Counted from the stretch's first letter, positions 18,472 to 42,450 are shown. The stretch is 64,000 bases of DNA from an uncultured Flavobacteriales bacterium (GCA_963706125.1 CAVPLQ010000008.1:682308-746307), one strand, 5' to 3'. Translations and numbers: made by a program. Notes: generated from the sequence alone by a model not told the origin.

Positions 18472-19494
18472 TTCTCAATAGACCGCATCACGGTGATGGT
18501 TTGGTCGATGGCGTCATCGTCCACGTCCCGGTGTGTCACCATGCGCACCATGAACGTACCGAACTGCGACGCCAGAACGCCGTTCTCTTTCAGTTTGACG
18601 ATCAATTGCGTGGCGGGCATTATGGGTTTCAGGACGGTGACCACGATGTTGGTCTGCACGGGCAATACGTGTTCAACAAAGGAAAGACCGGCCAGGGATG
18701 CTTCCAGCCGCATGGCACGGGCATGGTCTTCCGCAAGCCGTTCCACATGATGGTCCAAGGCATGCAGGCCAGCCGCCGCCAGAATGCCCGCCTGCCGCAT
18801 CCCCCCTCCGATCCGTTTCCGCACGCGACGGGCCTGAAGAATGAAGTCCTTCCTGCCCACGAGAACACTTCCCACCGGCACACCAAGGCCCTTGCTCAGG
18901 CAGATCGATATCGAATCGAACGGCGCGCCCCACGCTGCGGGTGTCCGTCCGTCCACCGCCATCGCGTTGAAGATCCGGGCCCCGTCCAGATGGAGCTTCA
19001 GTTCATGCCGGTCACAAACCGAGCGGATGCGCTTCGCCTCGCCCAGGTCCCAGATGCTGCCCCCTCCGCGGTTGTTGGTGTTCTCGATGTTCACCAAGCG
19101 GGTCCGCGCCAGATAGGCGGCATCGCGGTCGTTCACGGCATCGGCCACGGCTTCCGCAGTGAAACGGCCCCGGTCCGCAGGTACGAACTTCACGCTGCAT
19201 CCACTGGTGGCCATCACGCCGCCACCTTCGTAGCGGTAGATGTGGGCACCTTCCTCGCAGACCACCTCGTCGCCCGGCCGCGTATGGACGTTGATCGGCG
19301 ATCTGGTTGGTCATCGTGCCGCTGGGGCAGAAGAGCCCGGCCTCGTGGCCGAAGAGCAAGGCCATCCGTTCCTCGAGCGCGTTCACCGTGGGGTCCTCGC
19401 CGAAGACGTCATCGCCCACCACCGCTGTTGCCATGGCCTCGCGCATGGCCGGTGTGGGCATGGTCACGGTGTCCGAACGCAGATCTATCGCCAT
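18468..19494 (-). pseudogene. ltaE: low-specificity L-threonine aldolase, disrupted by a +1 frameshift near nt 19296
   Basis: N-terminal ORF 19012..19494 ([29 protein letters not shown]) and C-terminal ORF 18468..19265 (..[19 protein letters not shown]..) are consecutive ltaE segments. Deleting one base in top-strand ttgatCggcg (19291-19300) restores ..[23 protein letters not shown].. Confidence 0.75.
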
Positions 19495-19540
19495 GAAGGG
19501 GCCAAGATAACAAGGTGCGAAGGGCGGATGATGCGACGGT

Positions 19541-19927
19541 TTAATGCAAGCGCCGCTTCAATTCGGCGAGCATCCGCAGTTCCTTGGCGTTCGCCCCATG
19601 GAACGCGTGGGCCACCACGTCAGCGGCCCGAAGGACAAGTTCCTTTTGCTCGGCACAGATCCGGTCCTTATGCTGGGTGAGGTACATGGCGAAGGAGTCG
19701 AACGCTTCTTCAGGAGCTTCCCCGCGGTCGGCCTGAATGTCGAATTCGAACTCGGTGATGTAGGCCTGATCCGTTCCGAAGTGGTCCGTTGAGGCCTCCT
19801 GCGGCACCAATTGCTCGGAGACGACGCGCTTCATCGTGGCGGCCTCCTTGGCATGGATACGCCCGTCCACTGCTGCGATCGCGTAAAGCAAGCGCCCGAG
19901 TTCAGCATAGAATTTCTTCTGGTCCAC
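19541..19927 (-). CDS. TerB-family (tellurite-resistance TerB-like) protein
   Basis: 128 aa, [35 protein letters not shown].. matches the TerB helical-bundle N-terminus. Confidence 0.5.
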
Positions 19928-20101
19928 GCCGAAAGGTAATGCATAAGCAAGGAGCTGTTGGCTGCGACGCGGGCTTTTCTGCGGGTCAACACATGGTCGA
20001 TCCTCCTGCCTGTGGTGTCGGCGAGCTAGAGGTTGCCGCGGAAGGGGGCAAATAAACTTTTCGACCTCCGGGACGTAACAATGCCGATCAATTCAGAACA
20101 G

Positions 20102-21344
20102 ATGAAGCGTAACTACGTGATGATCCTTGCCTGCGCATTGGCCACCGGGACGATGGCTCAATGGCAGCAAATGGGTTTGGAGGGAATGTCATCCACCAGC
20201 GGCGGCGTCCAAGTCGTGGACGGGACGGTCTACTTCCACCCGGGGGAGGACCAGGGCACCATCCACCGGTCCGATGACATGGGGGTGACCTGGCAGATCT
20301 TGCATTTTGCGGATGAAAGCCGTTCATGGAAATACCTAGGCAACAAGCACACCCAGTACATCAACTACGGGACCATGGATACCGGCCCCCACGGGCTCTA
20401 CCGCAAGATGGAGCTTCAGGATTCCTTCACGGACCTGGGCGCGACCATCACGGACTTCGATGTGTTGGACAATGGCCGCGTGGTGGCTTCCACCGGGTCG
20501 GCCGGTGAGGGTTCCATCATCGTGAGCGATCAATATGGTGAGGCGTGGGTATCGGTTTTCCCTTCCACGGGGAACGTTCAGACCCGCTTGGTCGGTCGTG
20601 ATGGGCAGGATCGTCTGCTTGTGCAAGCTTTCGTGGAGACCAGCGAGAATGATCTGGACCTGGGACTTTTCCGGTCCTCGGACTCCGGTGATTCCTGGGA
20701 TCGGATCAACGGGATCAAGAACGACCTCACCGGGGCCAGTGCCAACGTGGACCATTCCATCTACTGCTCCAATGGGCTAAGGATCTTGAAAAGCATGGAC
20801 GATGGCGAGAAATGGGCGCTGTCGTCCGTGGATTTTCCCTATGCGGGCCTCACGGGCTCCCGTGTCTTCAACATGGGCGGTGGGCACGTCTTCTTCATGT
20901 GCCACGAACCCGGCATGACCAACGGGGTGAACTTGTACCAGAGCCTGGACTTCGGTGTTAGCTGGTCCCCCGTGGAAGAGGAAGATCTCCGAGCATTTGA
21001 TCTTCAACATGGCCCGTGATGGATCGGGCCACGTCTATGCCGCCACCGATAACGGTGTATACCGGCTCGACCTTGCGACGGCCGTGGGCATCAGCGACCC
21101 CGGGCACGCGGCAAGCGTGTTCGCTTACCCCGTGCCCACTTCGGATAACCTAGTGGTGAACGCCGGCGGTGCGATGATGACCGAATTGCGCTTGTTCGAT
21201 GCGGCATCGCGCGAAGTGATGTTCAAACCGAACGTGGACAAACCTGCTGAACTGTTGCACGTGGGGCATCTGTCCCCCGGGGTCTACATCCTACGCGCGG
21301 TGACCAACAAGGGCATCGCCACCACCAGTGTGGTCGTGGAGTGA
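20102..21344 (+). pseudogene. BNR/sortilin-like repeat protein with T9SS type-A C-terminal sorting domain; frameshift near nt 20985
   Basis: Signal peptide MKRNYVMILACALATGTMAQ. Repeated S-x-D-x-G-x-T/S-W BNR motifs (SDDMGVTW, SSDSGDSW, SMDDGEKW, SLDFGVSW). ORF 20033..21019 stops right after ..SWSPVEEEDL; the -1-frame ORF 20955..21344 continues (..ISEHLIFNMARDGSGHVYAATDNGVYRLDL..) into a Por_Secre_tail (..LSPGVYILRAVTNKGIATTSVVVE). Confidence 0.65.
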
Positions 21345-21373
21345 TCCATCCTTCCTGAACGGCAACGGGCCGA

Positions 21374-21415
21374 TCGCAGTGATGCGGTCGGCCCGTTGTG
21401 TTTTTGGGAATGCTT
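21374..21415. terminator. bidirectional terminator hairpin
   Basis: ACGGGCCGATCGCagtgaGCGGTCGGCCCGT followed by tgtgttttt, between convergent genes. Confidence 0.7.
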
Positions 21416-21840
21416 CAATCCATGCGTCGGAACAGATGGCCGCAACTATCGCAGCGCATGGAGCGGTCCAGCGAGAGCGGATACACCGAGAAGAGCAATG
21501 CCAGTGCCCAATGGAAGATGCCGCTGGTTGTCCGGGGTTTTGAAACACCGTTCATCAGCTCTTCCGATCCGCACTTCGGGCAGCGGATGGGCTGCTCTTC
21601 GTCATCGAGAAAGGGGCGGTGCTCAGTTACGTTCAGGATGCGCAGTGCATCCGCTTTGGACCCCACGGGAACCTTCAACTTGATGCCGCCCAGTGCATAG
21701 CTGAACATCCGGTTGAGGCTGATGATGTGCTCATCATGCACGAAAGCCTCGATCCCTTCATTCTCCAGCAGGCAACGGGCCAAATGCGCCTCGATCGGAT
21801 CGTCATAGAACCGGATGGGTACCAGGTCGTACTCGTTCAT
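21415..21840 (-). CDS. DUF2007-domain protein with C-terminal zinc ribbon
   Basis: 141 aa. N-terminal DUF2007-like fold (MNEYDLVPIRFYDDPIEAHLARCLLENEGIEAFVHDEH..) and CPKCGS..CDSCGH Cys pairs. Confidence 0.5.
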   Translation of the reverse strand: MNEYDLVPIRFYDDPIEAHLARCLLENEGIEAFVHDEHIISLNRMFSYALGGIKLKVPVGSKADALRILNVTEHRPFLDDEEQPIRCPKCGSEELMNGVSKPRTTSGIFHWALALLFSVYPLSLDRSMRCDSCGHLFRRMD

Positions 21841-21844
21841 CCGC

Positions 21845-23682: not shown

Positions 23683-23906
23683 GCCCGAAGGTAGTGACCA
23701 TGGTCTGCTGCATCGTTTTCATGGCCATGCGACGAATGATGGCGGCACACGGATACATTTCAAGGATGGGCATCCCGCTGTCACGAACGAATGAGGCTAT
23801 TCCATCAGTCAACGCTTAGTAGGGGCCTCGCCATGGTTCTCCGAGACCTTCACGATCCCGATGGTGTCCTCCCAACGGATGCTTCGGTCGCGTGCGATGG
23901 CCGTCC

Positions 23907-25912: not shown

Positions 25913-26033
25913 GGCTCTGGGGTTTATGCGCCGGTATTCGGCACAGGTGTGTAGGGTTCTTCGCATGTCGGTACTGTTCACAGGACAAAACAAGGCCTTT
26001 GCACCATGCCCCGCCATCACCCATTTGGGTGGA

Positions 26034-26681
26034 TCAGATCAGCCGGTCCTGCAAGGCTTTGCGTACGGCTTCCGCGCGCGTATGCACCTGCAGCTTTTCG
26101 TAGACGCGCTTGATGTGCGCCTTCACCGTGTTGGTGCTGATGAAGAGCGCTTCCGCAATGCTGCGGTAATTCTCCCCGTCGCAGAGCCTCGCCAACACTT
26201 CCGTCTCGCGCTCGGAGAGTGTCGCATGGTTCCGTACCGGCTGGAAGGTGCAGACCACCATGCGGGCGATCGCGGGCGACATGGCCGAGCCGCCTTCATG
26301 GACCTCGGTGATCGCCTGGAGGATCGCCTCTGGCGACGCGTGCTTCAGCAGATAGCCCGATGCCCCGGCGCTCAACGCATGGAAAACGGTCTCTTCGTCC
26401 TCGCGCACGGAGAGCATCAGGAACTCGGTCCCCGGCAGCTTTTCCTTCAAGATCCGTACGCCCTCCACGCCGTTCATTCCCGGCAGGTTGACGTCCATGA
26501 GCACCACGTCGGGCGGTTCCTCGGGCAGGAGCTGCAGGGCCTCTTCGCAGGAGGGGAAACCATGGGTGAAGTGGAAGCCGTCCTGTTCCTCAAGGATGAG
26601 CCGGAGTGCCTCGCGCACCTCGCGATCGTCCTCCACCACGGCCACGGTGATCACGCGCGGAATGTCGATTTCCCGTCCCAT
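26034..26681 (-). CDS. LuxR/NarL-family DNA-binding response regulator
   Basis: 215 aa. REC domain (VAVVEDDREVREAL..VLMDVNLPGMNG..) plus LuxR HTH (..LSERETEVLARLCDGENYRSIAEALFISTNTVKAHIKRVYEKL..). Confidence 0.85.
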   Translation of the reverse strand: MGREIDIPRVITVAVVEDDREVREALRLILEEQDGFHFTHGFPSCEEALQLLPEEPPDVVLMDVNLPGMNGVEGVRILKEKLPGTEFLMLSVREDEETVFHALSAGASGYLLKHASPEAILQAITEVHEGGSAMSPAIARMVVCTFQPVRNHATLSERETEVLARLCDGENYRSIAEALFISTNTVKAHIKRVYEKLQVHTRAEAVRKALQDRLI

Positions 26682-26684
26682 GTT

Positions 26685-29600
26685 TCAGCTGGGTTCCGGT
26701 GTGGCTTGCAGGGATCCCATGGGTACGCGCACGGTGATCTTCGTTCCTTGGCCAACGGCACTATGGATGCCCAAGGCGGCCCCGATCTCCGAGGCGCGCT
26801 GGCTCATGTTGCGTAGGCCATGGTGGTCCGCCGACCGCGTGGCCAGTGTGTCGAAGCCGCTGCCGTCATCTTCCAGGTCGATCACCAAGTGTGCCTCCTC
26901 CATCCGGGCGCTCAAGGTACAGCGCCGGGCCGCTGCGTATTTGGCACAGTTGTTCATGGCCTCCTTCATGAGCAGAGTGATCGCACGGCGCGTCTCCATG
27001 GTGACGTGCATGCGCAATGCGGGTGGCGGCGGGGCGGTCACTTTGAAGGCCGTGGGTGTGGCATCGAAGAGGGCCAGCCCGAAGGAGGTGAGCCGTTCCA
27101 AGGTGTCCCCGAGGCTGTCCCGCGTGGGGTCCATGGTCCAGATCAGGTCGCGGATGCCGGCCGAGAGTTCCCGGCTGGCGGTCTCGATCTTCAGGAGATG
27201 CGGGACCAGTTCCGGGTTTCCGGCGGCGCGTTGGCGGACCAGTCCGGTGAAGAGATTGATGCGGGTGATGCGCGCCCCGGCCTCATCGTGGAAATCGGCA
27301 GCGCTCCTCCGGCGGAAGTTTTCGAACTGCTCCGCCTTGGCCTTTTCGGCGCTCGCATGCGCCGCTGCTTCCCGGCGGACCATCCGTAAGCGCATGCTGA
27401 AGACCGCATAGAGCACTCCGGCCAGCAGGCCCGCATAAGCGAGGTAGGCGTACCAGCGCAGCCACGGCGGGGCGAGCACATGGATCGCGAGCGAGGCCCC
27501 TTCGGTATTCCAGACCCCGTCGTTATTGGTGGCCTGCACATGCAGCCGGTATGAGCCCGGCGCCAAGTTGGTGAAGGTGACATCGTTGCGCGGGCCAAGG
27601 TCCACCCACCGTTCATCGAAGCCTTCCAGCCGGTACCGGTAGCGGTTCTTCTCCGGGGCGATGAAGTTCAGCGCCGCGAAGGTGAAGGTCAGCACATGGT
27701 GGTGCCAGGCCAAGTCAAGACGTTCCAGCTGATGCGGAGGGCGGTCGAGCGCGAGGCCGTCGCCGGTCCCTGCGGGCCGGACGGGCAGGGGCTTGTTGTA
27801 CAGGGCGATGCCGGTGAAACGCACGGGAGGCGGGCGCATGTTGGTCGCGAGGTCCGCTTCCCGGAACCAGGACAATCCGTTCGCACCACCGAAGTACAGC
27901 GTGCCATCGCGGCTCCGTATGAAGGCGTTCTGGTTGAACTCGTCTCCCGGCAGGCCGTCGCCTTGATCGAGCATGCACAATACCGTCCCGCTATCGGGGT
28001 CCCATTCCACCAGTCCGTCGTTGGTGCTCAGCCAGAGATGGCCGCCCTCGTCGGGCTGGATGCCATAGATCACCTCGTTAGGTAATCCGTCCGCACGGTT
28101 GTACCGCTTGAACATCCCTTCCTCCGCGCGGCCCTCCAGTACGGTGCGGCGCAGTTTCGTGTTCAATGGTCCGCGCGTGCGACAGAGGCCGTTCACCGTT
28201 CCCGCCCAGAGCCGGCCCTTCGGGTCCTGGTACAGGCAGAGCACGAGGTCCGCGCTGAGGCTGCCCATGTCCTCCGGTTCATGCTTCACCGTCCCGAAGG
28301 TGCCATCGGGGGAACGCAATAACAGGCCACCGCCCGCCGTGCCCGTCCAGAGGAATCCGGCATCATCCACAAGCAGGGTGAAGAGGTAGGGATGCGAAGG
28401 GCCGTCGCTACCACCGGTAGGACCTTGGCAGGAAAGGGCGCCGGCGGCGCTGTCCAACCGGCAGAGCCCCGCACCGCCCGTGGCGAGCCAAACGTTCCTG
28501 GACGTGGTGGTCAGGATGTGGTGAACGATGTCCGCACGACGCGGGTCGGTCAGGCCGACGGGCCTGTGGCGCTTGACCCCGATCTTTCCTTCGCGCTCGA
28601 CCACCTCGTTCAGCCCGCCGCCCAAAGTGCCCACGAGGATCCGTCCCTGATCGTCCATGGCGAGTGACAGTACGTAGTCCGCGCCTAAGGAGCTGGGGTC
28701 GCGTGGATCATACCGCAGGTGCCGGAACGCGTCCTTCGCGCGATCCCAGATCGTCAAGCCGGACGGGGAGCCGATCCAGATCCGGCCTTGCAGATCCTCG
28801 ATCAGCGCGGTCACGCTTGTATGTAACAGGCCATTGGTGTCCCCTGATGAATGCGTCAAGGCATGGACGGTCGGCTCCAGGCGATCGATGCGGTCCAGCC
28901 CGTTGCGGGTGCCCACCCAGATCTCGCCGCCGCGCCCGGCATGGATCGAAAGGACGTGGTCGTCCGCAAGGCTCGATGGGTCGTCGGGCCGGTGCCGATG
29001 GATGTAAGTGGCACCGCTTGACCGGACCATGAGGACCAGGCCGTGCGTGGTGCCGATCAGGATGTGATCCTTCAGAAGCAGGAAACACTGGAAGCCCATC
29101 TTCGGGTCGGCCGTGGAAAGCGAGCCTGCGTCCACCAGTACGGCTTCCTCCGCAGTGCGCGGGTCGATCCGGTAAAGCCGGCGGTTCTCCAGCACATGGA
29201 CAGCCTCCGGGGTGGCGGTTAAGGCGGTCACCTCCTGTTCCGTGCCGGTCCCCGGGCCCTGCTTCAAGACCTCCACCCCGCCGGTGGACATTGTGAACCG
29301 CAGCAGTCCCGCCCGGCCTTGGAGCAGCAGGTGGTCCGCATCACCGGGCGCCATGGCACCGATCAGGTCCCCTTCGGCCATGCCGCCCTCGATATAGCGT
29401 TGGACGCTTCCGGTTTCCATGTCCAACCGGTCGAGGCCCTTGCCGGTGCGCACCCACAGCACACCGGCAGGGTGCTCCAGCAAGCCCAGGACGCGGTCGC
29501 TGCTCAGGCTCCGGGGATTCTCCCTCGGCATGCCGGAAATGGCTGAACGCGTCGGTGCCGGGGTCATAGCGGTCGAGGCCGCCCCCGTAGGTGCCGATCC

Positions 29601-29871
29601 ACAGTGCGCCGTCCTGCGCTTCCAAGGAGGCCCACACATAGTTGTTGGAGAGGCTGTTCGCCGTGCCATCATTCCGGTAGGTGATAAAGCCGTGCCCGTC
29701 ATAGCGGCACAGGCCGTCCTGTGTGCCGGACCAGAGGAAACCGTACCGGTCCTCCAGCATCGTGTTCACGGAATTCTGGGGAAGCCCGTCGGTGTTGTCC
29801 AAGTGATGGAACCGCAGCGGGCCGGGTTGCGCGCATAAGGCTATGGAGACCGCCGCATAGGCGATGAGCAT
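26685..29871 (-). pseudogene. two-component-regulator-propeller (Y_Y_Y) hybrid sensor histidine kinase; frameshift near nt 29525
   Basis: N-terminal ORF 29341..30000 carries a signal/TM segment and the first Reg_prop repeats (..LSNNYVWASLEAQDGALWIGTYGGGLDRYDPGTDAFSHFRH), then runs into nonsense. ORF 26685..29702 resumes with ..ENPRSLSSDRVLGLLE.. Further propeller repeats, a Y_Y_Y domain, a TM helix, an H-box (..FHDEAGARITRINLFTGL..) and HATPase_c follow. The start codon (29871 or 29907) is uncertain. Confidence 0.7.
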
Positions 29872-30027
29872 GGCGGTTCGACCGGGGCTATGTGGTTCAA
29901 TGCGCATGCGGGGCCAGCCTCGAACATACAGAGGATCCGCGGAAGATCCACCCAAATGGGTCATGGACGGGCTATCTGAATGGCCGAACTTCGCGCTCAA
30001 GAATCCACGACCATGTATACAAGCTCC

Positions 30028-31486: not shown

Positions 31487-31951
31487 ATGAAAAACGTTGC
31501 GCAGATCGCCAAACATTTCCGCGACGTTCACTTCGGTGGCAATTGGACCAGCGTGAACCTGCGTGACACGCTGAAGGACGTTACCTGGCAAGAGGCGACA
31601 TACAAGCGCGAAGGCTTCAACACCACTGCGGTACTCACCTTCCACATCAACTACTTCGTGGATGCTACGTTGAAGGTCCTCGAAGGTGGCCCACTCGATG
31701 CCCATGACAAGTTCAGTTTCACCCATCCACCGATCACAAGCGAAGCCGATTGGCAGCGCATGTTAGAGAAGGTTTGGAGCGATGCCGAACGTTTCGCCAC
31801 CCTTGTAGAGCAACTGCCTTAGGAGCGTTTGCACCAAAATATGGCCGACCCGAAGTATGGTACGTGGTTTCGCAACCTGCACGGCATCATCGATCACACG
31901 CACTACCACATGGGGCAGATCGTGATCTTGAAGAAGTTGATTCGGGGGTGA
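31487..31951 (+). pseudogene. DinB/YfiT-family (DinB_2) protein interrupted by an in-frame TAG at 31820-31822
   Basis: MKNVAQIAKHFRDVHFGGNWTSVNL.. through ..ATLVEQLP, then TAG. The same frame continues ERLHQNMADPKYGTWFRNLHGIIDHTHYHMGQIVILKKLIRG to TGA at 31949-31951, the conserved DinB_2 C-terminus. Confidence 0.6.
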
Positions 31952-32084: not shown

Positions 32085-32104
32085 CTCCAATTCAATTGGT
32101 CAGA

Positions 32105-33919
32105 TCAATAGCCGTATTTCCCCTCGGCGATCATTATCTTCGATATCGCCTTCCGCAATTCCGCCGTATTCAAGTTCGTGCTCTTGCAAAAGCGCTTCGC
32201 GCCCATCAGCATGGCACGCTGTTCGTCGCCATCGGAGAAGTTGTTCACGGCTTCTTTCGCGTACTTGTGGATCCGATCGGCCGCATCATGTACAAAGAGC
32301 TGGCACATGGCCAACTGCTCTTTCACGTTATCAGTGCCCTTCATCTCGGCCAACTTCAAGGTCCGCAGTAATGCGCTTTCGGCGAGGTAGGTGTCGATCA
32401 CCATATCGGCGATGTGCATCAAGGTCTCTTGGTGCTTCGCCAGTTCTAGACCGAGTTTCTGCGCAGCGCCACCGGCCACCATCAGCACGGCCTTCTTGAA
32501 ATTCGTCTACCATACGCTTCTCGTCGCCGAGCAGTGAATCGTCAGGCTCCGGCATTTCGGGGAGGCCCATCAGTTCAGCGGCGACGGCTTCTGTGCAGGA
32601 CCCATCAGGTCCAGCTGGCCCTTCATCGCGCGCTTCAGCAGCATGTCCACCGTGAGCATGCGGTTGATCTCGTTCGTTCCTTCGAAGATCCGGTTGATGC
32701 GACTGTCGCGGTAGGCACGCTCTACGGGGCTTTCGGCGCTGTAGCCCATGCCGCCGAAGATCTGCACGCCTTCATCGCACACGTAGTCCAGGCATTCGCT
32801 GCCGGCCACTTTCAGGATCGCCGCTTCGGCAGCATACTGCTCCACACCTTTCAGCAAGGCTTTCGCGTGGTCCGCACCAGCGGCTTCCAAGGCTTCGATC
32901 GCCTGTTCCATATCGTAACTGCAACGGTAGGTCGCGCTTTCCACCACGTAGCAGTAGGTTGCTTGGTCGGCAAGCTTTTGGCGGATCGCACCGAACGAGC
33001 TGATTGGACGGCCGAACTGCTGCCGTTCGTTGGCGTACTGCACCGAATGGTCCACCACGGCCTTCGCGCCACCGAGCGCAGCCCCCGACAATTTGATGCG
33101 ACCGATGTTCAAGATGTTCACCGCGATCTTGAAACCGTTGCCGCGCTCACTCAGCAAATTCTCCACTGGCACCTTGCAATCGTTGAAGAACACCTGCCGC
33201 GTGCTGCTGCCCTTGATCCCCATCTTCTTCTCCTCCGGGTTCAGCGTGATGCCGCCGAAACTCTTCTCCACGATGAACGCGCTCAGGTTCTCATCCGCCT
33301 CGCCGGTCTTCGGGTCCACGATCTTGGCGAACACCGTGAAGATGTCCGCGAAACCACCGTTGGTGATCCACATCTTCTGGCCATTGAGGAGGTAGTGCTT
33401 GCCGTCATCGCTCAGCACCGCCTTCGTTTTCCCGCTGTTGGCATCGCTGCCGGCTCCGGGTTCCGTGAGACAGTACGCAGCCTTCCACTCGCCGGTGGCC
33501 AACTTCGGGATGTACTTCTTCTTCTGCTCCTCGGTGCCGTAATAGAGTATCGGCAGCGTGCCAATGCCTGTATGCGCCGCGATGGCCACGCTGAAACTAT
33601 GACCCGCCCCGGTCACTTCCGTCAGGAGCATCGTGGTCACGAAGTCCTTGCCGAAGCCGCCTAACTCTTCCGGCAAGGAGATGCCCAGCAGCCCGAGTTC
33701 ACCGGCCTTGTCCAGTAGGCTCGGCATCAGGCCCTCCTCCATGCTGTCGATGCGGTCCAAGTGCGGCCAAACCTCCTGCGACAGGAAGTCCTTTGCCGTC
33801 TGCGCAATCATGCGCTGCTCCTCGTTGAATTCTTCAGGAATAAAAATGTCCTTCGGGTCGCTTTCGCGGATCAGGAATTCGCCGCCTTGAAGGGCTTTGG
33901 GTTTGGTCTCTGTTGCCAT
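32105..33919 (-). pseudogene. long-form acyl-CoA dehydrogenase (about 600 aa, with C-terminal helical extension); two frame changes in the linker at about 32497 and 32580
   Basis: ORF 32570..33919 (449 aa) is a complete ACAD core (..[12 protein letters not shown].., ..[31 protein letters not shown]..). It continues in a second frame (..[26 protein letters not shown]..), then a third (FKKAVLMVAGGAAQKLGLELAKHQE.. = ORF 32105..32488), which is the usual C-terminal extension of this ACAD class. An extra T in gaaTTTcaag (about 32497) accounts for the second shift. Confidence 0.65.
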
Positions 33920-33975
33920 TGTTCGGTTCGAATGTTCAGGCTGTTGATGTCTGCTGCCAAGTGTAACGAATTGTG

Positions 33976-34011: not shown

Positions 34012-34092
34012 TATATCCTGCAAGTACCGAGTGTGGAATGCCGGAAACATCCATTGGCAGCGGGATAACATCGAAGTAGGGAGGACGTTCTC

Positions 34093-35247
34093 CTAGTTCC
34101 AAGGACCGGTCTTCGTCACATGAAAGAAGCGCTTTCCACCTGTCCTGAGCGATGCCGAAGGATCGAAGCGGAAGAGCCCATTCCAGCCACCGAACCAGAA
34201 CCGTCCTTCCCGGTCCTCCATGATGGTGAGGATCCCGTTCGTGTCGAGGCCATCGTCGGTGTAGAAATTGGTGAAGGCCTTTCCGTCGTAACGATAAACC
34301 CCGAAGTTCTCCGCAGCGAACCAGATGTTCCCCTTCTTGTCCTCGTAGAACGCACCGACCTCCACACCTTGGATCACGCCGTCCTTGGTGAAGTTCTCGA
34401 AGGTCTTGCCATTGTATCGGCTCACTCCACCGAAGCTGCTGCCGATCCACAAGTTGCCCTTGCTGTCCTCGAATAGGCCGGTCACGCTGTTGTCCGCCAG
34501 GCCGTTCTCCGTAGCGTAGTGGGTGAAGGCTGCACTCGCATCGCTTATCCGCGGATCGTATTTGTACAAACCACCGGCATCGCGACCGAACCAGATGTTC
34601 CCCTTGATGTCTTCCAGGACGCACGTGATGCGTGTTCGGGATAGCATGGCGGTGGTGTCTTGTGCCCGCACTGCCGAAATAGGTACGGTGGTGAATGCCT
34701 TGCCATCGAAGCGGCATAGCCCGTCCATCGTGCCGATCCAGATCGTGCCATCGCGCCCCATGGTCATGCTCCAGATCTCATTGTGGAGCAGCCCATCCAT
34801 TGTGGTGAACTGGCTGAAGCCATGGCGAGATGAGCCGCGCTCGGCCGGCCCCCCCTGAGCTCGTCGAAGAGTGGGGCCGTACTTGAAGAGGCCTTCACCA
34901 TCTGTTGCTAACCAAATGTTCCCTTCGTGGTCCTCCACGATCCCGTTGATCCGGCCCGACGTGATGCCGACGCTATCGGCGAGGTACTCCAGTGTATCGT
35001 TCTGGTAGCGGATCGCGCCGTAGTGATTGGTGCCGAACCAGAGCGCACCGCGTTTGTCCTGATGCATGTTGCGCACCCAGTGACAGAGTTGCCCCTCGTA
35101 TGAAAGGCGCACGGGCCACTCGCTCGGGATCGGGACGGTATCGTTCGTGATCACCACCGGTTCCTTGATGCTGCTCTGTCCGTTGCAGGAGTAGAGGAAG
35201 AGCAATGAGCCGAAGGCTTGGCAGGCGATGGTGTGCGTGGTCTTCAT
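34093..35247 (-). CDS. lipoprotein made only of two-component-regulator propeller (Reg_prop) repeats, no kinase domains
   Basis: 384 aa, signal plus lipobox (..LLFLYSCNG). At least 8 repeats of the ..GNIWFGT..GL.RYDG..F..F form. One stretch (..KYGPTLRRAQGGPAERGSSRHG..) coincides with a G7 homopolymer (about 34860-34880) and may hide a compensated frameshift. Confidence 0.6.
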   Translation of the reverse strand: MKTTHTIACQAFGSLLFLYSCNGQSSIKEPVVITNDTVPIPSEWPVRLSYEGQLCHWVRNMHQDKRGALWFGTNHYGAIRYQNDTLEYLADSVGITSGRINGIVEDHEGNIWLATDGEGLFKYGPTLRRAQGGPAERGSSRHGFSQFTTMDGLLHNEIWSMTMGRDGTIWIGTMDGLCRFDGKAFTTVPISAVRAQDTTAMLSRTRITCVLEDIKGNIWFGRDAGGLYKYDPRISDASAAFTHYATENGLADNSVTGLFEDSKGNLWIGSSFGGVSRYNGKTFENFTKDGVIQGVEVGAFYEDKKGNIWFAAENFGVYRYDGKAFTNFYTDDGLDTNGILTIMEDREGRFWFGGWNGLFRFDPSASLRTGGKRFFHVTKTGPWN

Positions 35248-36097
35248 TTCTTCCTGCCCTTTGTGATCGCCTTCTTCCCCGGTGGCAGAAAGTTACTCCC
35301 TGAAACTACAGAACGCCCTGTGCGCTCTTCCAGCTCAAGCCGAGCCTTCTTCGCGATGCCACCACCTTTCCTTGCCGCCACTTTGTTCTTGGGCATCCCC
35401 TTGGCCTGATCACTCTCCGCGATCTGCCGTGTGCTCAGTTCCGCCAGAGCCGTGAAGGTCAGCTCCGCTTCGGTCCTATGGTCGCGCAGGTTCTGGGTCT
35501 TCAGGCCCTTGATCCCTTTATGGTCTTTCACGGTCACACCACTCCACTCCTGATGAATGATGTTCGTGAGGATCGCATACTCTTCACCCTCCTTGTTGTC
35601 ATGTTCCTTCCATTTGTCCGTGAGCTGGTTGCGCGTCTCCTGGCCCATCATGCGCTGCTGGATCCACTTCTCGCTACGGCCGTGCTTCAACCAAAGTTCG
35701 CGGGCGCGGTCCACGCCGAGGCTCGGGTCGGCCAGCTCCTGCATGCGTTCGTAATCCACCTTTGCCAGCCACAGTTTGATAGGTTCCGCCTTGGGGCTTG
35801 GAACGGACTGGACAAGTCGCAGCAAGGTCTCGGCGGTGGCTACATCGGTGAGGCGCAACCTGCCATCCTCGGCGGGCAATTTCAACCGGTTACAATCTGT
35901 AACCAGTTGACTTCCCTCTTTCTCCAGTCTGTGTATCAATACCTTCCAGTATTCCGGGCAAGCTGGTAGTCTGGCTGTTGGGCCAGTGCCTGAATGATGT
36001 CGATCACAGAGAACCACCAAGTCTCCGTGGCTTCGTCGTAGAGACGTCGAATGTGGTGTTGCTCAAAGAGGGCGGAAGAGGGTAGCAGGGCGCTCAT
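35244..36097 (-). pseudogene. dinD: DNA-damage-inducible protein D (DinD)-like / Bro-N domain protein; -1 frameshift near nt 35952
   Basis: ATG at 36095-36097 opens MSALLPSSALFEQHHIRRLYDEATETWWFSVIDIIQALAQQPDYQ.. (Bro-N-like). It is out of frame with ORF 35244..36020 (..YWKVLIHRLEKEGSQLVTDCNRLKLPAEDGRLRLTDVATAETLLRLVQSVPSPKAEPIKLWLAKV..KGMPKNKVAARKGGGIAKKARLELEERTG), which matches DinD over the whole length. Inserting one T in cggaat_actgg restores continuity. Confidence 0.6.
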
Positions 36098-36171
36098 GGG
36101 TTCAGCTATTCACCGTCGGCTTTCTCGTCGATCGGTGTTTGACAACATACTGCCTTCCGAACTCTTTCCGC

Positions 36172-37347
36172 TCAATTCAACAACTCAAACACACTCGCCG
36201 CACCCTGCCCGGCGCCCACACACATGGTAACAACGCCATACTTCTGTTTGCGACGTCTCATCTCATTGAAGAGCTGCACGCTCAGCTTCGCACCTGTGCA
36301 ACCCAGCGGGTGTCCCATCGCGATCGCGCCACCGTTCACGTTCACAATGCTCGGGTCCAGCCCAAGCTCACGGATCACCGCCAACGACTGCGACGCGAAG
36401 GCCTCGTTCAGCTCGATCAGCTCGATGTCCTTCAGCTTCAGTCCGGCCATTTCGATCGCCTTTGGCACTGCTGCGATCGGACCTATACCCATGATGCGCG
36501 GCGGCACGCCGGCCACGTGGTAGGAGAGGAGGCGCGCGATCGGCTTCACGTTCAATTGCTTCAGCATGCGCTCGCTCACCACCAGCACGAAGGCCGCGCC
36601 ATCGCTGGTCTGTGAGGAATTGCCGGCGGTCACGGTACCTTTTGGATCGAACACGGGGCGAAGTTTTGCCAGCCCTTCCAAGCTGCTCGTGCGCGGACCT
36701 TCATCCGTGTCCACCACGTATTTCTCCACTTGACGCTTTTCCCTCGCATCCAAGAAGACCCGCTCCACCTCGAAGGGTACGATCTCGTCCTTAAAGCGCC
36801 CGGCGGCGATGGCGGCCAGCGCTCTTTCCTGGCTCTGCAGTGCGAAAGCATCCTGGTCCTCGCGCGTCACCTTGTACTCGCGCGCAACGGCCTCGGCGGT
36901 GAGGCCCATGCCCCAATACCAAGTGGGATGTTCCTGCGCCACCTTGGCATTCGGCACAATGCGCCAGCCGCTGAAGGGGATGGGGCTCATGAACTCCACG
37001 CCCCCCGCGATGATGCAATCCGCCATGCCGCTTTGGATCTTGGCACTGGCGATCGCGATCGTCTCGCTGCCGCTGCTGCAATAGCGGTTCACCGTCATGC
37101 CCGGCACCTTCTCGTTGTTCAGGCCCATCAGGCTGATCATGCGGCCGATGTTCAGGCCCTGCTCCGCCTCGGGCGTGGCGTTGCCCACGATCACATCGTC
37201 CACTTGGTCGGGTGCGAGGTTGGGCACGGAGGCCATCAGGTGTTTGATCACGTGCGCGGCGAGGTCGTCGGGGCGGGTGAAACGGAATTTGCCACGAGGG
37301 GCTTTTCCTACTGCGGATCGGAATCCGGCTATGATGTATGCGTCCAT
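36172..37347 (-). CDS. fadA: acetyl-CoA C-acyltransferase (3-ketoacyl-CoA thiolase)
   Basis: 391 aa from ATG at 37345-37347 (MDAYIIAGFRSAVGKAPRGKFRFTRPDDL..). Thiolase active-site regions are present (..NRYCSSGSETIA.., ..NVNGGAIAMGHPLGCTGAKL.., ..MCVGAGQGAA..). In the ORF track it appears as the C-terminal third of a 1181-aa ORF (see findings). Confidence 0.85.
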   Translation of the reverse strand: MDAYIIAGFRSAVGKAPRGKFRFTRPDDLAAHVIKHLMASVPNLAPDQVDDVIVGNATPEAEQGLNIGRMISLMGLNNEKVPGMTVNRYCSSGSETIAIASAKIQSGMADCIIAGGVEFMSPIPFSGWRIVPNAKVAQEHPTWYWGMGLTAEAVAREYKVTREDQDAFALQSQERALAAIAAGRFKDEIVPFEVERVFLDAREKRQVEKYVVDTDEGPRTSSLEGLAKLRPVFDPKGTVTAGNSSQTSDGAAFVLVVSERMLKQLNVKPIARLLSYHVAGVPPRIMGIGPIAAVPKAIEMAGLKLKDIELIELNEAFASQSLAVIRELGLDPSIVNVNGGAIAMGHPLGCTGAKLSVQLFNEMRRRKQKYGVVTMCVGAGQGAASVFELLN

Positions 37348-37355
37348 GGTATGGT

Positions 37356-39717
37356 TCAATTGCGGAGCACCTTGCCCGTAGTTATGATCGATTGAAGTCT
37401 TTCCAGCGTCTTCCGCTGCATGCACAACTCCAAGAACGTCTTCCGCTCCAGGTCCAGCAGGTATTGCTCGGAAACCTCCGTCGATCTCCGAGAGGTCGCC
37501 GCCGCACATCACGTACCCCAGCTTCTCGCTGATCAGCGCGTCGTGCTCGCTGATGTAGTTGCCGCTCTGCATGCTGTTGGCGCCGACGTAAACAATGCCG
37601 AGGCCTTCCTTGCCGAGCACCTTGATGTCGCGGCGCATGGGCGGCTTGGTGTAGCCGCGTTCCCAGAGGGCGAGCGCGCATTCCTTGGCGTAGGCGAGCT
37701 GGTGTGCGCGGCTAACGATCACTTCGTCGATGCCTTCGCGCAGGTAGCCGAGGTCGAAGGCTTCTTGCCCGCTGGTGCTCACTTTGGCTTGGCCGATGGT
37801 GAGAAAGCGCTCGCGGAGCCGGTTGATGCGGATGTCGCCTTCCTTCAGTTCATCGCTGAGGCGCAGTGCGAATTCCTTGGTGCCGCCGCCGCCGGGTATC
37901 ACGCCGACGCCGAATTCCACGAGGCCCATGTAGGTCTCTGCGTGCGCCACCACTTTGTCCGCGTGCATGCAGAGTTCGGTGCCGCCGCCCAAGCAAAGCT
38001 GGTGCGGTGCGGCCACCACGGGGATGCTGCTGTGGCGCATGCGCATCATGGTGTTCTGGAAGGTGCGGATGGCCATGTCGAGGTCCTCGTACTCCTGTTC
38101 CACGGCCATCATGAAGATCATGCCCACGTTGGCGCCAGCGCTGAAGAGCGCGCCGTCGTTGTAGACCACGAGGCCTTTGTAGCCTACCTCAGCGATGTCG
38201 ATCGCTTTGTTGAGGCCCAGGATCACCTCTGCGCCGAAGGTGTTCATCTTGCTGCTCCAGCTCACGGCAAGGATGCCGTCGCCGAGGTGGCGCACTGTGG
38301 TGTCCTTGTTCTTCCAGACGATGCTGCTTTCCGGCAGGTCGGCAAGCACGATCAGTCCTTCCTGGCCCGGCACCGGCTTGTAGCTCTTGCTCGGGATATC
38401 GTAGAACAGCCGCTTGCCACCTTCACGTTTGTAGAAACTCGTGTTGCCTGCGGCCACGAAGTCCTTCACCCAAGGCGCCACCTTGACACCCTTCGCCTCC
38501 ATCTCCTCCGTTACCTCCTTCACGCCAATGGCCTCCCATGCCTCAAAAGGTCCCAGCTCCCAGCCGAAGCCGGCGCGCATGCCGTCATCGATGCGGTAGA
38601 GCTCGTCGCTGATCTCGGGGATGCGGTTGCTCACGTAAGCGAACATCGCTTGGAAGGAACGGCGGTAGAACTCGCCAGCCTTATCCGTGCCGTGGTAAAC
38701 GAGCTTGGTGCGTTCGCGCAGGTCGTCCACCTTCTTGGCGGCGTCCAGCGTGGCGAACTTGGGCTTCACCTGAGGCTTGTATTCGAGCGTTTTCAGGTCC
38801 AAGGAAAGGATCTCGCCTTTCTTGGTACTGCGATCCTTGAAGTAGAAGCCCTTGCCGGTCTTGCTGCCGAGCATCTGCTTCTCGACCATCTTCTGGAGAT
38901 ATTCCGGAATGGCGAAGAGGTCGTTGCGTTCATCCTTCGGGCAGTTGTCATGCACGCCTTTCGCGACGTTCACGAGCGTGTCCAATCCGACCACATCGGC
39001 GGTGCGGAAGGTGGCGCTCTTGGGGTGGCCGATCACGGGTCCGGTGAGGCGGTCCACCTCTTCCACGGAAAGGCACATGTCGTTGATCAGGTGGAAGATG
39101 TCCATGATGCCGAACACGCCGATGCGGTTGGCCACGAAGGCGGGCGTGTCCTTGGCCAGCACGGTGACCTTGCCCAGCACGCGGCGGCCGTATTCCTCAA
39201 GGAAGGCGATCACCGCCGGGTCGGTCTTCGGGCTGGGGATCAGCTCCAGCAGCGGCAGGTAGCGCGGCGGGTTGAAGAAGTGCGTGCCGAGGAAGTGTTT
39301 TGCGAAATCATCGCTGCGGCCTTCGAGCAAGGCGTGAATGGGTATGCCGCTGGTGTTACTGGTGATCAACGTGCCGGGCGTGCGGTATTTCTCCACGTTG
39401 GCATACACCTGCTGCTTGATGTCGAGGCGTTCCACCACCACTTCGATCACCCAATCGCAGTCCTTGATCTTCGGGAGGTCGTCGTCGAAGTTGCCGGTGG
39501 TGACGCGCTTCGCGAAACGCTTGTCGTAGATGGGAGAGGGGTTGCTCTTGAGAGCGAACGCCAGAGCATCGTCAACGATCTTGTTCCTCGGGCCTTCCTT
39601 CGGAACGATGTCGAGGAGCAGTACCTCGCAGCCCACGTTGGCGAAGTGGCAGGCAATGCGGCTGCCCATTACGCCGGATCCGAGGACGGCTACTTTTTTT
39701 ATCTGTCTGTTTGCCAT
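37356..39717 (-). pseudogene. fadB: fused 3-hydroxyacyl-CoA dehydrogenase / enoyl-CoA hydratase (FadB/FadJ-type), +1 frameshift about 130 nt before its stop (about 37485)
   Basis: MANRQIKKVAVLGSGVMGSRIA.. (Rossmann 3HCDH) through the crotonase domain to ..GYVMCGGDLSE. The native C-terminus (..PTEVSEQYLLDLERKTFLELCMQRKTLERLQSIITTGKVLRN, stop at 37356-37358) is in the +1 frame. In the track frame it reads through 8 nt of intergenic DNA into fadA. Confidence 0.8.
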
Positions 39718-40160
39718 TATTTGAAGAGTTCGTCGTTGTCTAAAAGCGTATTGATCTTGTTCATCACGTTGTGAAAGGTCTGTAGTTGGCCTGCGGGAAT
39801 ATTGGCGCTCACGGCCTCGTTAAAACGGATCACGGTGTCCTTGCTCAGGTCGCGCATCTGTTTGCCCTTGGCCGTCAGCATCACCCGGCTCATGCGGCCA
39901 TCGGAGCTGTCCGCCACGCGCCTGATCAGGCCTTCCGCTTCCATGTTCTTCAGGGTGCGCGTGAGGCTGCGCGCCTCCATGCCCATCTTGGGTCCGAGCT
40001 TGGTGCTGGGCGTTCCCTCGGGATCGATGTTCAGCAGCACGTAACCGATGCTCATTGAGCCGCCATGCTCCGATGCCTTCTCATTGTAGCGCCGCATGAT
40101 GCGATGCCACGCCCAGCGGATCGGATGGTCTATGGTCTCCTCGGGCCTCATGGTCGTCAC
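39717..40160 (-). CDS. MarR-family transcriptional regulator
   Basis: 147 aa winged HTH (..SIGYVLLNIDPEGTPSTKLGPKMGMEARSLTRTLKNMEAEGLIRRVADSSDGRMSRVMLTAKG..). Its stop TAA overlaps the fadB start by 1 nt. Confidence 0.8.
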   Translation of the reverse strand: MTTMRPEETIDHPIRWAWHRIMRRYNEKASEHGGSMSIGYVLLNIDPEGTPSTKLGPKMGMEARSLTRTLKNMEAEGLIRRVADSSDGRMSRVMLTAKGKQMRDLSKDTVIRFNEAVSANIPAGQLQTFHNVMNKINTLLDNDELFK

Positions 40161-40184
40161 AAGGTCCGAAGGTAATCAGGAATA

Positions 40185-40198
40185 GTATGCGTGCATAC
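40185..40198. promoter_or_regulatory. 14-bp palindrome GTATGCGTGCATAC 25 nt upstream of marR start; candidate MarR operator
   Basis: Perfect inverted repeat GTATGC-gt-GCATAC; same motif found at 33998-34011. Confidence 0.5.
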
Positions 40199-40268
40199 AA
40201 AATAACAAACGTGAACAAGCTGCTTTCGCTGGATGTTTGGATCACGCCTAAATAAGGAAAGAAGTGCT

Positions 40269-42324
40269 TTAGCGCATCAAGCTCAAGTGCCCGTGGAAGC
40301 TCTCGTCGTTGATCTGCACTTCGTAGAAGTAGACCCCTTCGCTCGCGGGTCCACCGTTCTCCTGCTTCCCGTCCCAGCCATTGTTGCCGCCGTTGCTTTC
40401 ATGGACCAGTTTGCCCCAGCGATCAAAGATCCGCAACTGGAAACAAGGGTCAAGCGTTTGCGTCGACTTCAGCTTGAACCGGTCGTTCACATTGTCGTGG
40501 TTTGGCGTGAAGACATTGGGCAGCTCGAAGTGTACGAGTTCACCGTACGGGGCGACCTCGATGGTTTGTTCGGCGTAGCCGGTACAGCCCGTGTTGGTGG
40601 TGGTCTGCAGACCGATGGTGGTGGGTCCGTTGAAGGGCAGCAGGAATTCGGGACCGTTCTGCCCGACGGTCGTGGCCGATCCGTTCACGGTCCAGGTGGA
40701 GCCCACGGTGTTCGGGCTGGTATCGAGGGCCCGGGCGAGGATGCCTAAGCAGGTGGTGTCCGTGGTGACGGTGAATTCCGCCGGTGGGGTGGTGAGGATG
40801 TTGATCGGTTGCATGGTCTCCATCGTGCATCCGTTCAGGGAACGCTCCACGGTGATCTGCCCGATGCCGGGGTCTCCCCAAGCGATGGTGACACAGCTAC
40901 TGTCGGAACCGGAAAGGATCGTGCCCCCGGTCACGGTCCACGCATAGGTGGCATTCTCGATCAGTTCGGTGCAGTATTCCGCGGTGGTCTGGCCGGAACA
41001 ACCGATGCCCAGTCCGGAGATCGTGGGCGGCGCCGAACTAGGCACTACGTTGATGGTGACGGTGGCGCTGAAGGTCCCGGGCGGACATCCTTCATCATAC
41101 ACCAGTACAGAGAAGTTGTACGGATCCGTGCTCCCCTGTGCGCAGACCGTGGGCCAGCAGAATTGCGTGGTGAGCAGGCTGTCCCCGGTGGAAGGCCCGG
41201 TGATCGTCGCGGGCGGGTCGGTCTGGGCATTGAGGAAGATCGCGCCGATGGCACTGAAGTTGATCACATCACCGTCGGAGTCCGTGAAGGTCATGGGGAA
41301 GCACAGGGTGTCCCCGGCCACCACTTCGTAATTAGCGACGAACTGCCCGTCCAAGGGCTGCGGTGCGGCATTGCTTCCGCTGCATGGCACGCTTAAGAGC
41401 TGCAGGTCGCTCCGGATCAGGCCGATCAATTGACCGTTCCGGTATTCCCTCACTTCCACCACCACCACCCAGTTGCCGATCATCGGCGCGACATATTCCG
41501 TGGCGCCGGTCACCGGGTCGATACTGGCGTAACCAGAGGGTCCGAAAGGCATCCCCGTGGTGATCCCCAGGCCGTATTGCACCGGCTGCAGGGGCCAGTC
41601 CAAAAGGGTGGGCGGATTCGATCACGCCACCGATGTCGTCCTGAGAGCCATAGGGCGTATCAAAACTGAACACGAGTGAATCTCCGTCGCTATCGATGGC
41701 CGCATTGCTGAACGCTGTGGTGTCGGAGATGCAGATGTACGGCACCGGTGTCCCGGTGAACACGGGCGAAGAATTAGCGATGGAGGTGGGTGGCATGTAG
41801 GAATAGAACCCCATGCCCGCTTCGCCGGGGTCTTGCAGATTGACGATCGCACCATTACGGGCGAAGAGCTGCAGATAGAGGTGAAAGCCGGTATTGCTGG
41901 CCGAGAGCACCACCTCGCCCTCCAATCGGCTTTCCTCCACGCACTGGCCATCGCCCAGGTTGCAGCCGGCGGGTATGTTGGGCGTGATCACGCCATAGGA
42001 AGTCAGATAGACCATGGCGGTCTGGATCTGGTTCTTGTCGGCGCCGGGCGCGGTGGGGTCGTCGGCATAGACCCCGATGGGCACGCCAGTCGATGCGTTG
42101 CCGAGCAGGTCGATGATCGAAGGAAAGCTTGAACCGGAGCCGCAGTTGATAAAGAGCCTTACGATCACTTTATACCTGTATTCCCCGGTCCCCGGAGCGG
42201 TCTCACCGAGATATTGATAGCCCAGATCACCACCGACGATATGGGTGGCGCGTGCGCTGAATGATGTGGCGAAGCAGGCCAATAAGAACAAGATCCGCAC
42301 AGGCCGAATAATGAATTGTATCAT
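40269..42324 (-). pseudogene. large secreted protein with T9SS type-B (gliding-motility-associated) C-terminal domain; frameshift near nt 41610
   Basis: ATG at 42322-42324 gives signal peptide MIQFIIRPVRILFLLACFATSFSA and ..THIVGGDLGYQYLG.. Frame breaks at ..QDDIGGVIESA|PTLLDWPLQPVQYG (ccc/tttt run at about 41605-41620). Continuation is ORF 40269..41603, with Cys-rich Ig-like repeats and the type-B CTD (..LPNVFTPNHDNVNDRFKL..IFDRWGKLV..WDGK..GVYFYEVQIND..). Confidence 0.65.
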
Positions 42325-42450
42325 CTGGCGTTTTTTTTGATAGGGTCCCCAAAGTAGGGAGATGGATCGATCTCGTGGGTTTTTTCGCCGAAAAAGCGGA
42401 TGTTGGTGCTTCCCGGTCCATATTTGACGACCGACCTGACGAAAATGTAG

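What the first reader, a model, noticed from the sequence alone, without database searches (positions are those of the whole stretch)
19000..42400. Dense, localized cluster of gene-disrupting lesions (10 or more frameshifts plus one amber) in a 23-kb stretch, against intact genes elsewhere
Every homolog-bearing gene checked between about 19 and 42 kb needs a frame change or stop read-through to reconstitute its family-conserved sequence:
- ltaE (about 19296)
- BNR-T9SS protein (about 20985)
- propeller sensor kinase (about 29525)
- DinB (TAG at 31820)
- acyl-CoA dehydrogenase (about 32497 and about 32580)
- possibly the propeller lipoprotein (G7 run at about 34870)
- dinD (about 35952)
- fadB (about 37485)
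- type-B CTD protein (about 41610)
- plus the partial MBL gene at about 260

In contrast, about 25 genes in 2-19 kb and 42-64 kb read through cleanly, including long ones: a 726-aa OMP, a 988-aa kinase, dnaX, icd, obg. Uniform sequencing error should not be this clustered. A real burst of pseudogenisation would be biologically notable: the beta-oxidation operon, a two-component system and several T9SS cargoes would all be inactive. Local low coverage or a collapsed/misassembled segment are the other explanations.
Basis: partly seen in the sequence, partly recalled or inferred. Interest (0 to 1): 0.55.

Follow-up and report, generated by a model that had tools for sequence, protein, structure and literature searches.

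The report
Clustered frameshifts are probably assembly errors
Nine small insertions or deletions and one stop codon really do break nine genes in this stretch, but an independent assembly of the same strain reads straight through every frameshift it covers, so they are most likely long-read consensus errors rather than a burst of gene death.

Summary
Homologue alignments and Pfam coverage confirm nine indel lesions: about 260, 19297, 20960-21014, 29518, 32508, 32589-90, about 35952, 37482 and 41618. They also confirm an in-frame TAG at 31820. The G7 run at 34870 is not a lesion.

I found no lesion in 2-19 kb or 42.4-64 kb. The clustering is only modestly significant (scan statistic p about 0.02-0.04).

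A real pseudogenisation burst is not supported:
- Logan contigs from run ERR12037370 carry neighbouring proteins identical to the window's. They hold intact genes at all four frameshift sites they span: ltaE 341 aa, BNR ORF at least 435 aa, kinase 1073 aa, CTD protein 684 aa.
- Close relatives lack each extra base, and the flanks are otherwise conserved.
- At least seven of the nine indels are insertions.
- Four touch a GATC, in two recurring forms (GATC to GATTC, GATC to GATCG), p about 4e-4.
- Sister long-contig MAGs have the same kinase split at other positions.

This pattern fits systematic long-read consensus error, possibly linked to methylation. The DinB amber is reproduced exactly in the independent assembly and is probably real. 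Low interest.

The parts
3..577 (+). 3' part of a beta-CASP/RMMBL (MBL-fold) gene, cut by the window edge. There is a frame change at about 258-262 in GGATCCAAG, either one base missing or two extra.
   Evidence: Beta-Casp 22-103/120 and RMMBL lie in different frames. Adding one A gives Beta-Casp 22-120/120 plus RMMBL in a single frame.
18468..19494 (-). ltaE-like threonine aldolase (341 aa when repaired). One extra base at 19297: + strand GATC[G]GCGATC.
   Evidence: The gene is an intact 341 aa in Logan contig P0Jwe5gq and in L112.
20033..21344 (+). BNR/Asp-box protein with a T9SS C-terminal sorting domain. There is a +1 shift somewhere in 20960-21014. Candidate sites are the C5 run at 20967-20971 or next to the GATC at 20984.
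   Evidence: The Logan contig has one continuous ORF of at least 435 aa ending at the same stop.
26685..29907 (-). Propeller/Y_Y_Y sensor histidine kinase (1073 aa when repaired). One extra T at 29518: + strand GGGGA[T]TCTCC, that is GATC read as GATTC.
   Evidence: It is an intact 1073 aa in the Logan contig. All sister-species proteins read AEGDPRSL at this site.
31487..31951 (+). DinB_2 family gene with an in-frame TAG at 31820-31822, where a relative has Glu.
   Evidence: The exact 111-aa truncated product is also present in the Logan contig.
32105..33919 (-). Acyl-CoA dehydrogenase (603 aa when repaired). One extra T at 32508 and an extra TT at 32589-32590. The 81 bases between them are read out of register and carry two stops.
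   Evidence: Both L001 and L033 lack these three bases.
35244..36097 (-). Bro-N / DinD-like gene with a frame change at about 35951-35953 (coding strand CGGAATACTGG). Either one base is missing, perhaps AAA read as AA, or two are extra.
   Evidence: The repaired protein gives Bro-N 4-92/96 across the junction. No close homologue was available to fix the exact event.
37356..39717 (-). fadB-like 3-hydroxyacyl-CoA dehydrogenase/enoyl-CoA hydratase (786 aa when repaired). One extra C at 37482: + strand CGT[C]GATC. The shifted frame runs into the thiolase frame.
   Evidence: The 41 residues after the shift are 100% identical to L033.
36172..37347 (-). Thiolase. It is intact in itself but read as part of an 1181-aa pseudo-fusion ORF (36172-39717) because of the fadB shift.
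40269..42324 (-). PKD/CHU_C (type-B CTD) T9SS cargo protein (684 aa when repaired). One extra T at 41618: + strand GGAT[T]CGATC.
   Evidence: It is an intact 684 aa in Logan contig liF-SGdJ.

Best explanation
The nine small indels are errors in the consensus of a long-read metagenome assembly. They are not mutations carried by the organism.

The window comes from a contig of about 766 kb, from a Flavobacteriales MAG of the wastewater/activated-sludge type. In a stretch of about 22 kb the consensus kept eight indels, mostly single-base insertions; a ninth lies at about 260. Several sit in or directly beside GATC, which is the pattern expected if modified GATC sites disturb base calling.

Why the stretch was left uncorrected is inferred, not shown. 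Possible causes are locally low or strain-mixed coverage, or polishing that failed for one or two chunks.

The genes concerned (ltaE, a T9SS BNR protein, a sensor kinase, acyl-CoA dehydrogenase, dinD, fadB, a CHU_C cargo protein) are therefore most likely functional. The TAG in the DinB_2 gene is a separate matter and is probably a genuine nonsense mutation.
For: **Independent assembly**
- Logan contigs of run ERR12037370 carry proteins identical to the window's intact genes: RR 215 aa, 141 aa, 384 aa, MarR 144 aa, 128 aa, BlaI 121 aa.
- They have intact genes at all four frameshift sites they span. The kinase is 1073 aa, exactly the length obtained by removing one base. The BNR ORF is at least 435 aa. 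The CTD protein is 684 aa, the repaired length. ltaE is 341 aa, the repaired length.
- Outside the cluster their gene lengths equal the window's.

**Relatives**
- Relatives at about 90% nucleotide identity lack each extra base, while the 12 bases on either side are identical or nearly so.
- Over 3.3 kb (16660-19944) the ltaE base is the only gap relative to L112.

**Indel spectrum**
- At least seven of nine events are insertions, and few are in homopolymers.
- Four of nine touch a GATC, against 4.5% expected (p about 4e-4).
- They fall into two recurring forms: GATC to GATTC (kinase, CTD) and GATC to GATCG (ltaE, fadB).

**Sister MAGs**
- Sister long-contig MAGs of the neighbouring species have the same kinase annotated in two or three pieces, broken at other positions. 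The breaks include another GATC[G] insertion and a compensated double shift like the one in the acyl-CoA dehydrogenase.

**No decay**
- The 41 residues of fadB after the shift are 100% identical to L033.

**Literature**
- Frameshift-causing indels in Nanopore MAG consensus depend on coverage (PMC9262707).
- Modified motifs including GATC cause persistent, strand-specific Nanopore errors (PMC11610603).
Against: - No reads or depth could be inspected. The sequencing platform of the source assembly and of ERR12037370 is not known to me.
- The Logan contigs gave gene coordinates and lengths only, not DNA. "Intact" is therefore inferred from ORF lengths and geometry.
- Five indels were not covered by any independent contig of the same strain: both in the acyl-CoA dehydrogenase, dinD, fadB and MBL.
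- The methylation paper reports mainly substitutions, not insertions, at modified motifs. The GATC link was noticed post hoc.
- Random consensus error does not by itself explain the clustering (p 0.02-0.04). The cause proposed for it is only an inference.
- If ERR12037370 is a different sample, a sibling strain with intact genes would give the same result.
Confidence: 0.85

Rival explanations
1. The lesions are real. One strain recently acquired about nine frameshifts in a 22-kb segment, knocking out beta-oxidation genes, a two-component kinase and T9SS cargo. This could follow relaxed selection or a local mutational process acting at GATC sites.
For: - The lesions are truly in the deposited sequence.
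- They are nominally clustered.
- One lesion, the DinB amber, is reproduced in a second assembly.
- The region shows gene-content differences from relatives: the BNR gene is absent in L112 and L010, and there is 3-5 kb extra between fadB and the thiolase in L032/L033.
Against: - All four frameshift sites that could be checked are intact in contigs whose neighbouring proteins are identical.
- The spectrum is insertion-biased and tied to a motif. Natural bacterial pseudogenes usually show a deletion bias and homopolymer slippage (general knowledge).
- The out-of-frame tails show no decay.
- Sister long-contig MAGs show the same kind of breaks at other positions in the same gene.
Confidence: 0.07
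2. There is no local phenomenon. The whole assembly carries consensus errors at roughly one per 6-7 kb, and the apparent cluster in this window is a chance arrangement.
For: - The scan-statistic p is only 0.02-0.04.
- One lesion lies outside the cluster, at about 260.
- Indels in intergenic DNA or in poorly conserved gene ends would escape my tests.
Against: - No coding lesion was found in about 40 kb outside the cluster by the frame scan, Pfam coverage or DNA alignment to close relatives.
- Logan gene lengths match the window's in 1.9-6.0 kb and 42.4-47.3 kb.
Confidence: 0.2
3. The consensus is a chimaera of co-existing strains. Where strains differ, the assembler or polisher mixed haplotypes and created indels.
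For: - Relatives at 90-93% identity co-occur in wastewater data sets.
- The Logan contigs are short and break inside the region, for example 45 nt after the DinB TAG. That is typical of graph branching.
Against: - The flanks of each indel are identical to the relatives, with no local cluster of substitutions.
- The link to GATC and the two recurring insertion forms point to base calling rather than to haplotype mixing.
Confidence: 0.15

Closest known systems
Frameshift-causing indel errors in long-read (Nanopore) genome and MAG consensus sequences, the problem measured by the IDEEL test
   Same: - Genes are split into adjacent ORFs in different frames by 1-2 nt indels.
- They are intact in short-read or higher-coverage assemblies of the same organism.
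- Sister long-contig MAGs show the same defect at other positions.
   Different: - The classical description stresses homopolymers. Here most events are insertions outside long homopolymers.
- They are concentrated in about 22 kb of the window.
Methylation-motif-associated Nanopore errors (for example at Dam GATC or Dcm CCWGG sites)
   Same: - Four of nine indels lie in or directly next to GATC, in two recurring forms.
- The same GATC[G] form can be inferred in a sister MAG.
- The literature reports persistent errors at modified GATC.
   Different: - The published errors are mainly substitutions (C to T, G to A), not insertions.
- Methylation of GATC in this organism has not been shown.
- No methyltransferase gene was found in the window.
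Genuine pseudogene accumulation in reductive genome evolution or relaxed selection
   Same: Several neighbouring genes carry frameshifts or a stop codon.
   Different: - There is no deletion bias, no decay after the lesions and no IS elements.
- The lesions are absent from an independent assembly with identical neighbouring proteins.
- Only the DinB amber behaves like a real mutation.

Membership tests
Assembly/consensus indel artefact | The lesion is absent from an independent assembly of the same strain. | tested here: met
   Four of four covered frameshift sites are intact in Logan ERR12037370 contigs whose neighbouring proteins are identical. This is judged from gene lengths, because no DNA was available. 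Five indels were not covered.
Assembly/consensus indel artefact | Reads do not support the consensus at the lesion, or depth is locally low. | not testable with these tools
   No read data or depth were accessible.
Assembly/consensus indel artefact | The error spectrum is typical of a platform: recurring context, 1-2 nt indels, no other change nearby. | tested here: met
   At least seven of nine events are insertions. Two forms recur at GATC. The flanks are identical to relatives.
Methylation-linked Nanopore error | Errors are enriched at one short motif. | tested here: met
   Four of nine events touch GATC, against 4.5% expected, p about 4e-4. The test was post hoc. Two of six inferred events in sister MAGs also touch GATC.
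Methylation-linked Nanopore error | The motif is actually modified in this organism, and the data are Nanopore. | not testable with these tools
   No raw signal, no platform information, and no methyltransferase gene in the window.
Real pseudogene cluster | The lesions are reproducible in independent data from the same lineage. | tested here: not met
   Not met for ltaE, BNR, the kinase and the CTD protein. Met only for the DinB TAG.
Real pseudogene cluster | There are signs of relaxed constraint after the lesion: substitutions, further indels or deletions. | tested here: not met
   The fadB tail is 100% identical to L033 over 41 aa. The repaired proteins align full length at 86-97% identity to relatives.

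The most novel reading that the evidence does not exclude
The +1 insertions at GATC are real and mark a local mutational process in this strain. One example would be error-prone repair at GATC nicks or at modified GATC sites. In that case a beta-oxidation operon, a two-component kinase and several T9SS cargo genes were inactivated almost at once.
Probability: 0.05. Interest if true: 0.6.

Novelty: not a real feature. Interest (0 to 1): 0.12.

Why it matters
As biology it matters little, because the genes are most likely intact.

As a caution it is useful:
- Automatic annotation of this contig would report about nine pseudogenes and a false 1181-aa fadB-thiolase fusion.
- It would suggest loss of beta-oxidation and of a sensor kinase.
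- Anyone using this MAG for metabolic reconstruction, pseudogene counts or protein databases should correct these sites.

The recurring GATC-linked insertions hint that this Flavobacteriales lineage modifies GATC and that the polishing used did not cope with it. The DinB_2 amber is the only lesion here that looks like a real mutation.

Tried and rejected
- **Exact look-ups of repaired proteins.** I looked up five kinase variants, ltaE, fadB, the CTD protein, the acyl-CoA dehydrogenase, five BNR variants and three dinD variants in the cluster table. All were absent. This is uninformative: the table lists the DinB 111-aa product without Logan as a source, although the gene index finds it in Logan.
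- **Look-ups that found nothing.** The thiolase, the TerB-like 128-aa protein and the 300-aa protein are not on record. Start-codon choices or contig breaks are the likely reasons, so fadB, dinD and the acyl-CoA dehydrogenase could not be checked in the independent assembly.
- **Candidate extra lesions outside the cluster, all rejected.**
  - The 46805 indel relative to L033 lies upstream of the ATG, between a saccharopine/alanine-dehydrogenase-like gene and the tmRNA.
  - The overlapping ORFs at 12292-13241 are separate PAP2 and CrcB genes.
  - The frame wobble at 1620-1890 lies upstream of the tryptophan dioxygenase domain.
  - The apparent second shift in the CTD gene at 42337-42392 is antisense or intergenic.
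- **GATC density.** It is flat along the window, so it does not explain the clustering.
- **NCBIfam.** It gave no name for the repaired dinD or DinB proteins.
- **Literature search.** A search for the run accession found nothing.
- **The genome-collection scan.** It did not return the window's own genome. The closest genome-collection relatives were only 65-66% identical.
Full report
**What the window is**

The window is about 60% G+C, gene-dense, and Flavobacteriales-like.
- The nearest genome-collection relatives are uncultured Flavobacteriales MAGs, mostly from wastewater or activated sludge.
- Closer relatives, 88-92% identical at the DNA level, occur in JGI and ENA metagenome contigs: L033 covers window 32-49.6 kb and L112 covers 16.7-31.5 kb.
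- Exact protein look-ups place the window's products on a single NCBI/ENA contig of 765,977 bp.

**Checking the observation**

I mapped coding frames in three ways: a GC3 profile, a self-trained codon-usage scan, and Pfam scans of the candidate ORFs. I then aligned ORFs of related loci to the window and aligned DNA of the two closest relatives.

| Gene | Position | Event |
|---|---|---|
| ltaE | 19297 | one extra base, + strand GATC[G]GCGATC; the only gap in 3.3 kb of alignment to L112 |
| BNR/T9SS protein | 20960-21014 | +1 shift, exact site undetermined |
| Propeller sensor kinase | 29518 | one extra T, GGGGA[T]TCTCC |
| DinB_2 | 31820 | TAG where a 154-aa relative has Glu |
| Acyl-CoA dehydrogenase | 32508 and 32589-90 | +1 and +2; the frame is restored after 81 out-of-register bases that hold two stops |
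| Bro-N/DinD-like gene | about 35952 | frame change, -1 or +2 |
| fadB | 37482 | one extra C, CGT[C]GATC |
| PKD/CHU_C cargo protein | 41618 | one extra T, GGAT[T]CGATC |
| beta-CASP/MBL (partial) | about 260 | frame change, -1 or +2 |

Further details:
- For the kinase, removing one base gives exactly 1073 aa from the ATG at 29907.
- For DinB, reading through the TAG gives a full DinB_2 match.
- For dinD, the repaired protein gives one Bro-N match across the junction.
- For the MBL gene, repair extends Beta-Casp to the end of the profile.
- For fadB, the shifted frame is by chance the thiolase frame, which produces an 1181-aa ORF.
- The G7 run at 34870 is not a lesion. The 384-aa lipoprotein aligns to L033 in one frame, and its exact sequence is on record elsewhere.

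**Is it clustered?**

Outside 19-42 kb I found no coding lesion other than the one at about 260.
- Three suspicious spots were resolved as ordinary: 46805, 12.3-13.2 kb and 1.6-1.9 kb.
- Genes such as S1/P1 nuclease, adenylate kinase, Obg, Icd, DnaX, S6/S18/L9 and the second kinase cover their profiles end to end.
- Eight of nine indels lie within 22.3 kb of 64 kb. A scan statistic gives p = 0.019, or 0.043 if the dehydrogenase pair is one event.

The clustering is nominally significant but not overwhelming. GATC density does not explain it, because it is flat along the window.

**Are the lesions real?**

The strongest evidence comes from exact-protein look-ups. Short Logan contigs assembled from run ERR12037370 carry proteins identical to the window's intact genes. 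They therefore come from the same strain, possibly the same sample.

Every frameshift site these contigs span is intact there:

| Gene | Length in Logan contig |
|---|---|
| Kinase | 1073 aa |
| BNR protein | one continuous ORF of at least 435 aa ending at the same stop |
| CHU_C protein | 684 aa, equal to my repaired length |
| ltaE | 341 aa, equal to my repaired length |

Outside the cluster, the gene lengths in these contigs match the window's. By contrast, the truncated 111-aa DinB product is reproduced exactly. These contigs came without DNA, so the comparison rests on gene coordinates and lengths.

**The nature of the changes**

At least seven of the nine indels are insertions. The two possible deletions (MBL, dinD) may be AAA read as AA.

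Four insertions touch a GATC, and they take two recurring forms:
- GATC to GATTC (kinase, CTD protein).
- GATC to GATCG, or equivalently CGATC (ltaE, fadB).

Only 4.5% of positions touch a GATC, so four of nine has p of about 4e-4. I noticed this after the fact.

The 90%-identity cluster of the orthologous kinase is also informative:
- It holds intact 1073-aa proteins from several sources, including assemblies with much longer contigs.
- It also holds two- and three-piece versions from other long-contig MAGs, each broken at a different place.
- I projected those breaks onto L112 DNA. One is again GATC[G], and one is a compensated double shift straddling a GATC, like the dehydrogenase pair here.
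- All these proteins read AEGDPRSL at the window's kinase lesion, which confirms that GATC is the original sequence there.

Nothing suggests decay after the lesions. The 41 codons of fadB after the shift are identical in protein to L033.

**Published context**

- Nanopore MAG consensus sequences retain frameshift-causing indels below about 40-fold coverage (PMC9262707).
- Modified motifs, GATC among them, cause persistent strand-specific errors. Those reported are mostly substitutions (PMC11610603).

**Conclusion**

The lesions are in the sequence as deposited, but the frameshifts are best explained as consensus errors of a long-read assembly, partly systematic at GATC.

Why they concentrate in 19-42 kb is not shown. 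Locally low or mixed coverage, or a stretch that escaped polishing, are inferences.

The DinB_2 amber is probably a genuine nonsense mutation. It is unremarkable on its own.

A real burst of pseudogenisation cannot be excluded without reads. It would require four of four testable lesions to be private to this assembly while all neighbouring proteins stay identical, and I give it about 5-7%.

Noticed in passing
window 46896-47292 (+): A full-length tmRNA gene with tag peptide GNTEYALAA. It is nearly identical to L033 and explains the very high conservation of this non-coding stretch. A 1-nt G-run difference from L033 at 46805 lies between the tmRNA and the start of the neighbouring dehydrogenase gene.
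   Followed up: yes
window 37347-37358; L033:12364-15561, and also L032, L035, L037, L038: In the window the fadB stop and the thiolase ATG are 8 nt apart. Five close relatives carry 2.9-4.8 kb of extra DNA there; in L033 this includes a 763-aa ORF and a 214-aa ORF. This is a gene-content difference inside the beta-oxidation operon.
   Followed up: partly
window 20033-21344: The BNR/T9SS cargo gene is absent from the otherwise syntenic relatives L112 and L010. In those, the DUF2007 or methyltransferase gene is followed directly by the TerB-like gene.
   Followed up: partly
whole window: GATC occurs 571 times. The expectation is 230 from base composition and 468 from trinucleotides. CTAG occurs only 17 times and TTAA 17 times.
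   Followed up: partly
proteins P0127-P0134 (sister MAGs): In public long-contig MAGs of the neighbouring species (MBK... accessions), the orthologous 1073-aa kinase is annotated as two or three separate hypothetical proteins. These are evidently the same kind of frameshift artefact, now propagated into nr.
   Followed up: partly
window 26034-29907 and 54669-58401: There are two paralogous propeller/Y_Y_Y histidine kinase plus LuxR-type response regulator pairs. Each is followed on the same strand by genes for secreted or T9SS-tailed proteins.
   Followed up: no
window 31868 (end of Logan contig ndYiEn7p): The independent contig stops 45 nt after the DinB TAG. The stretch between it and the next contig (31.87-33.63 kb, holding the two dehydrogenase indels) was not recovered in any contig I could find. 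This may indicate low depth or strain branching just there.
   Followed up: no
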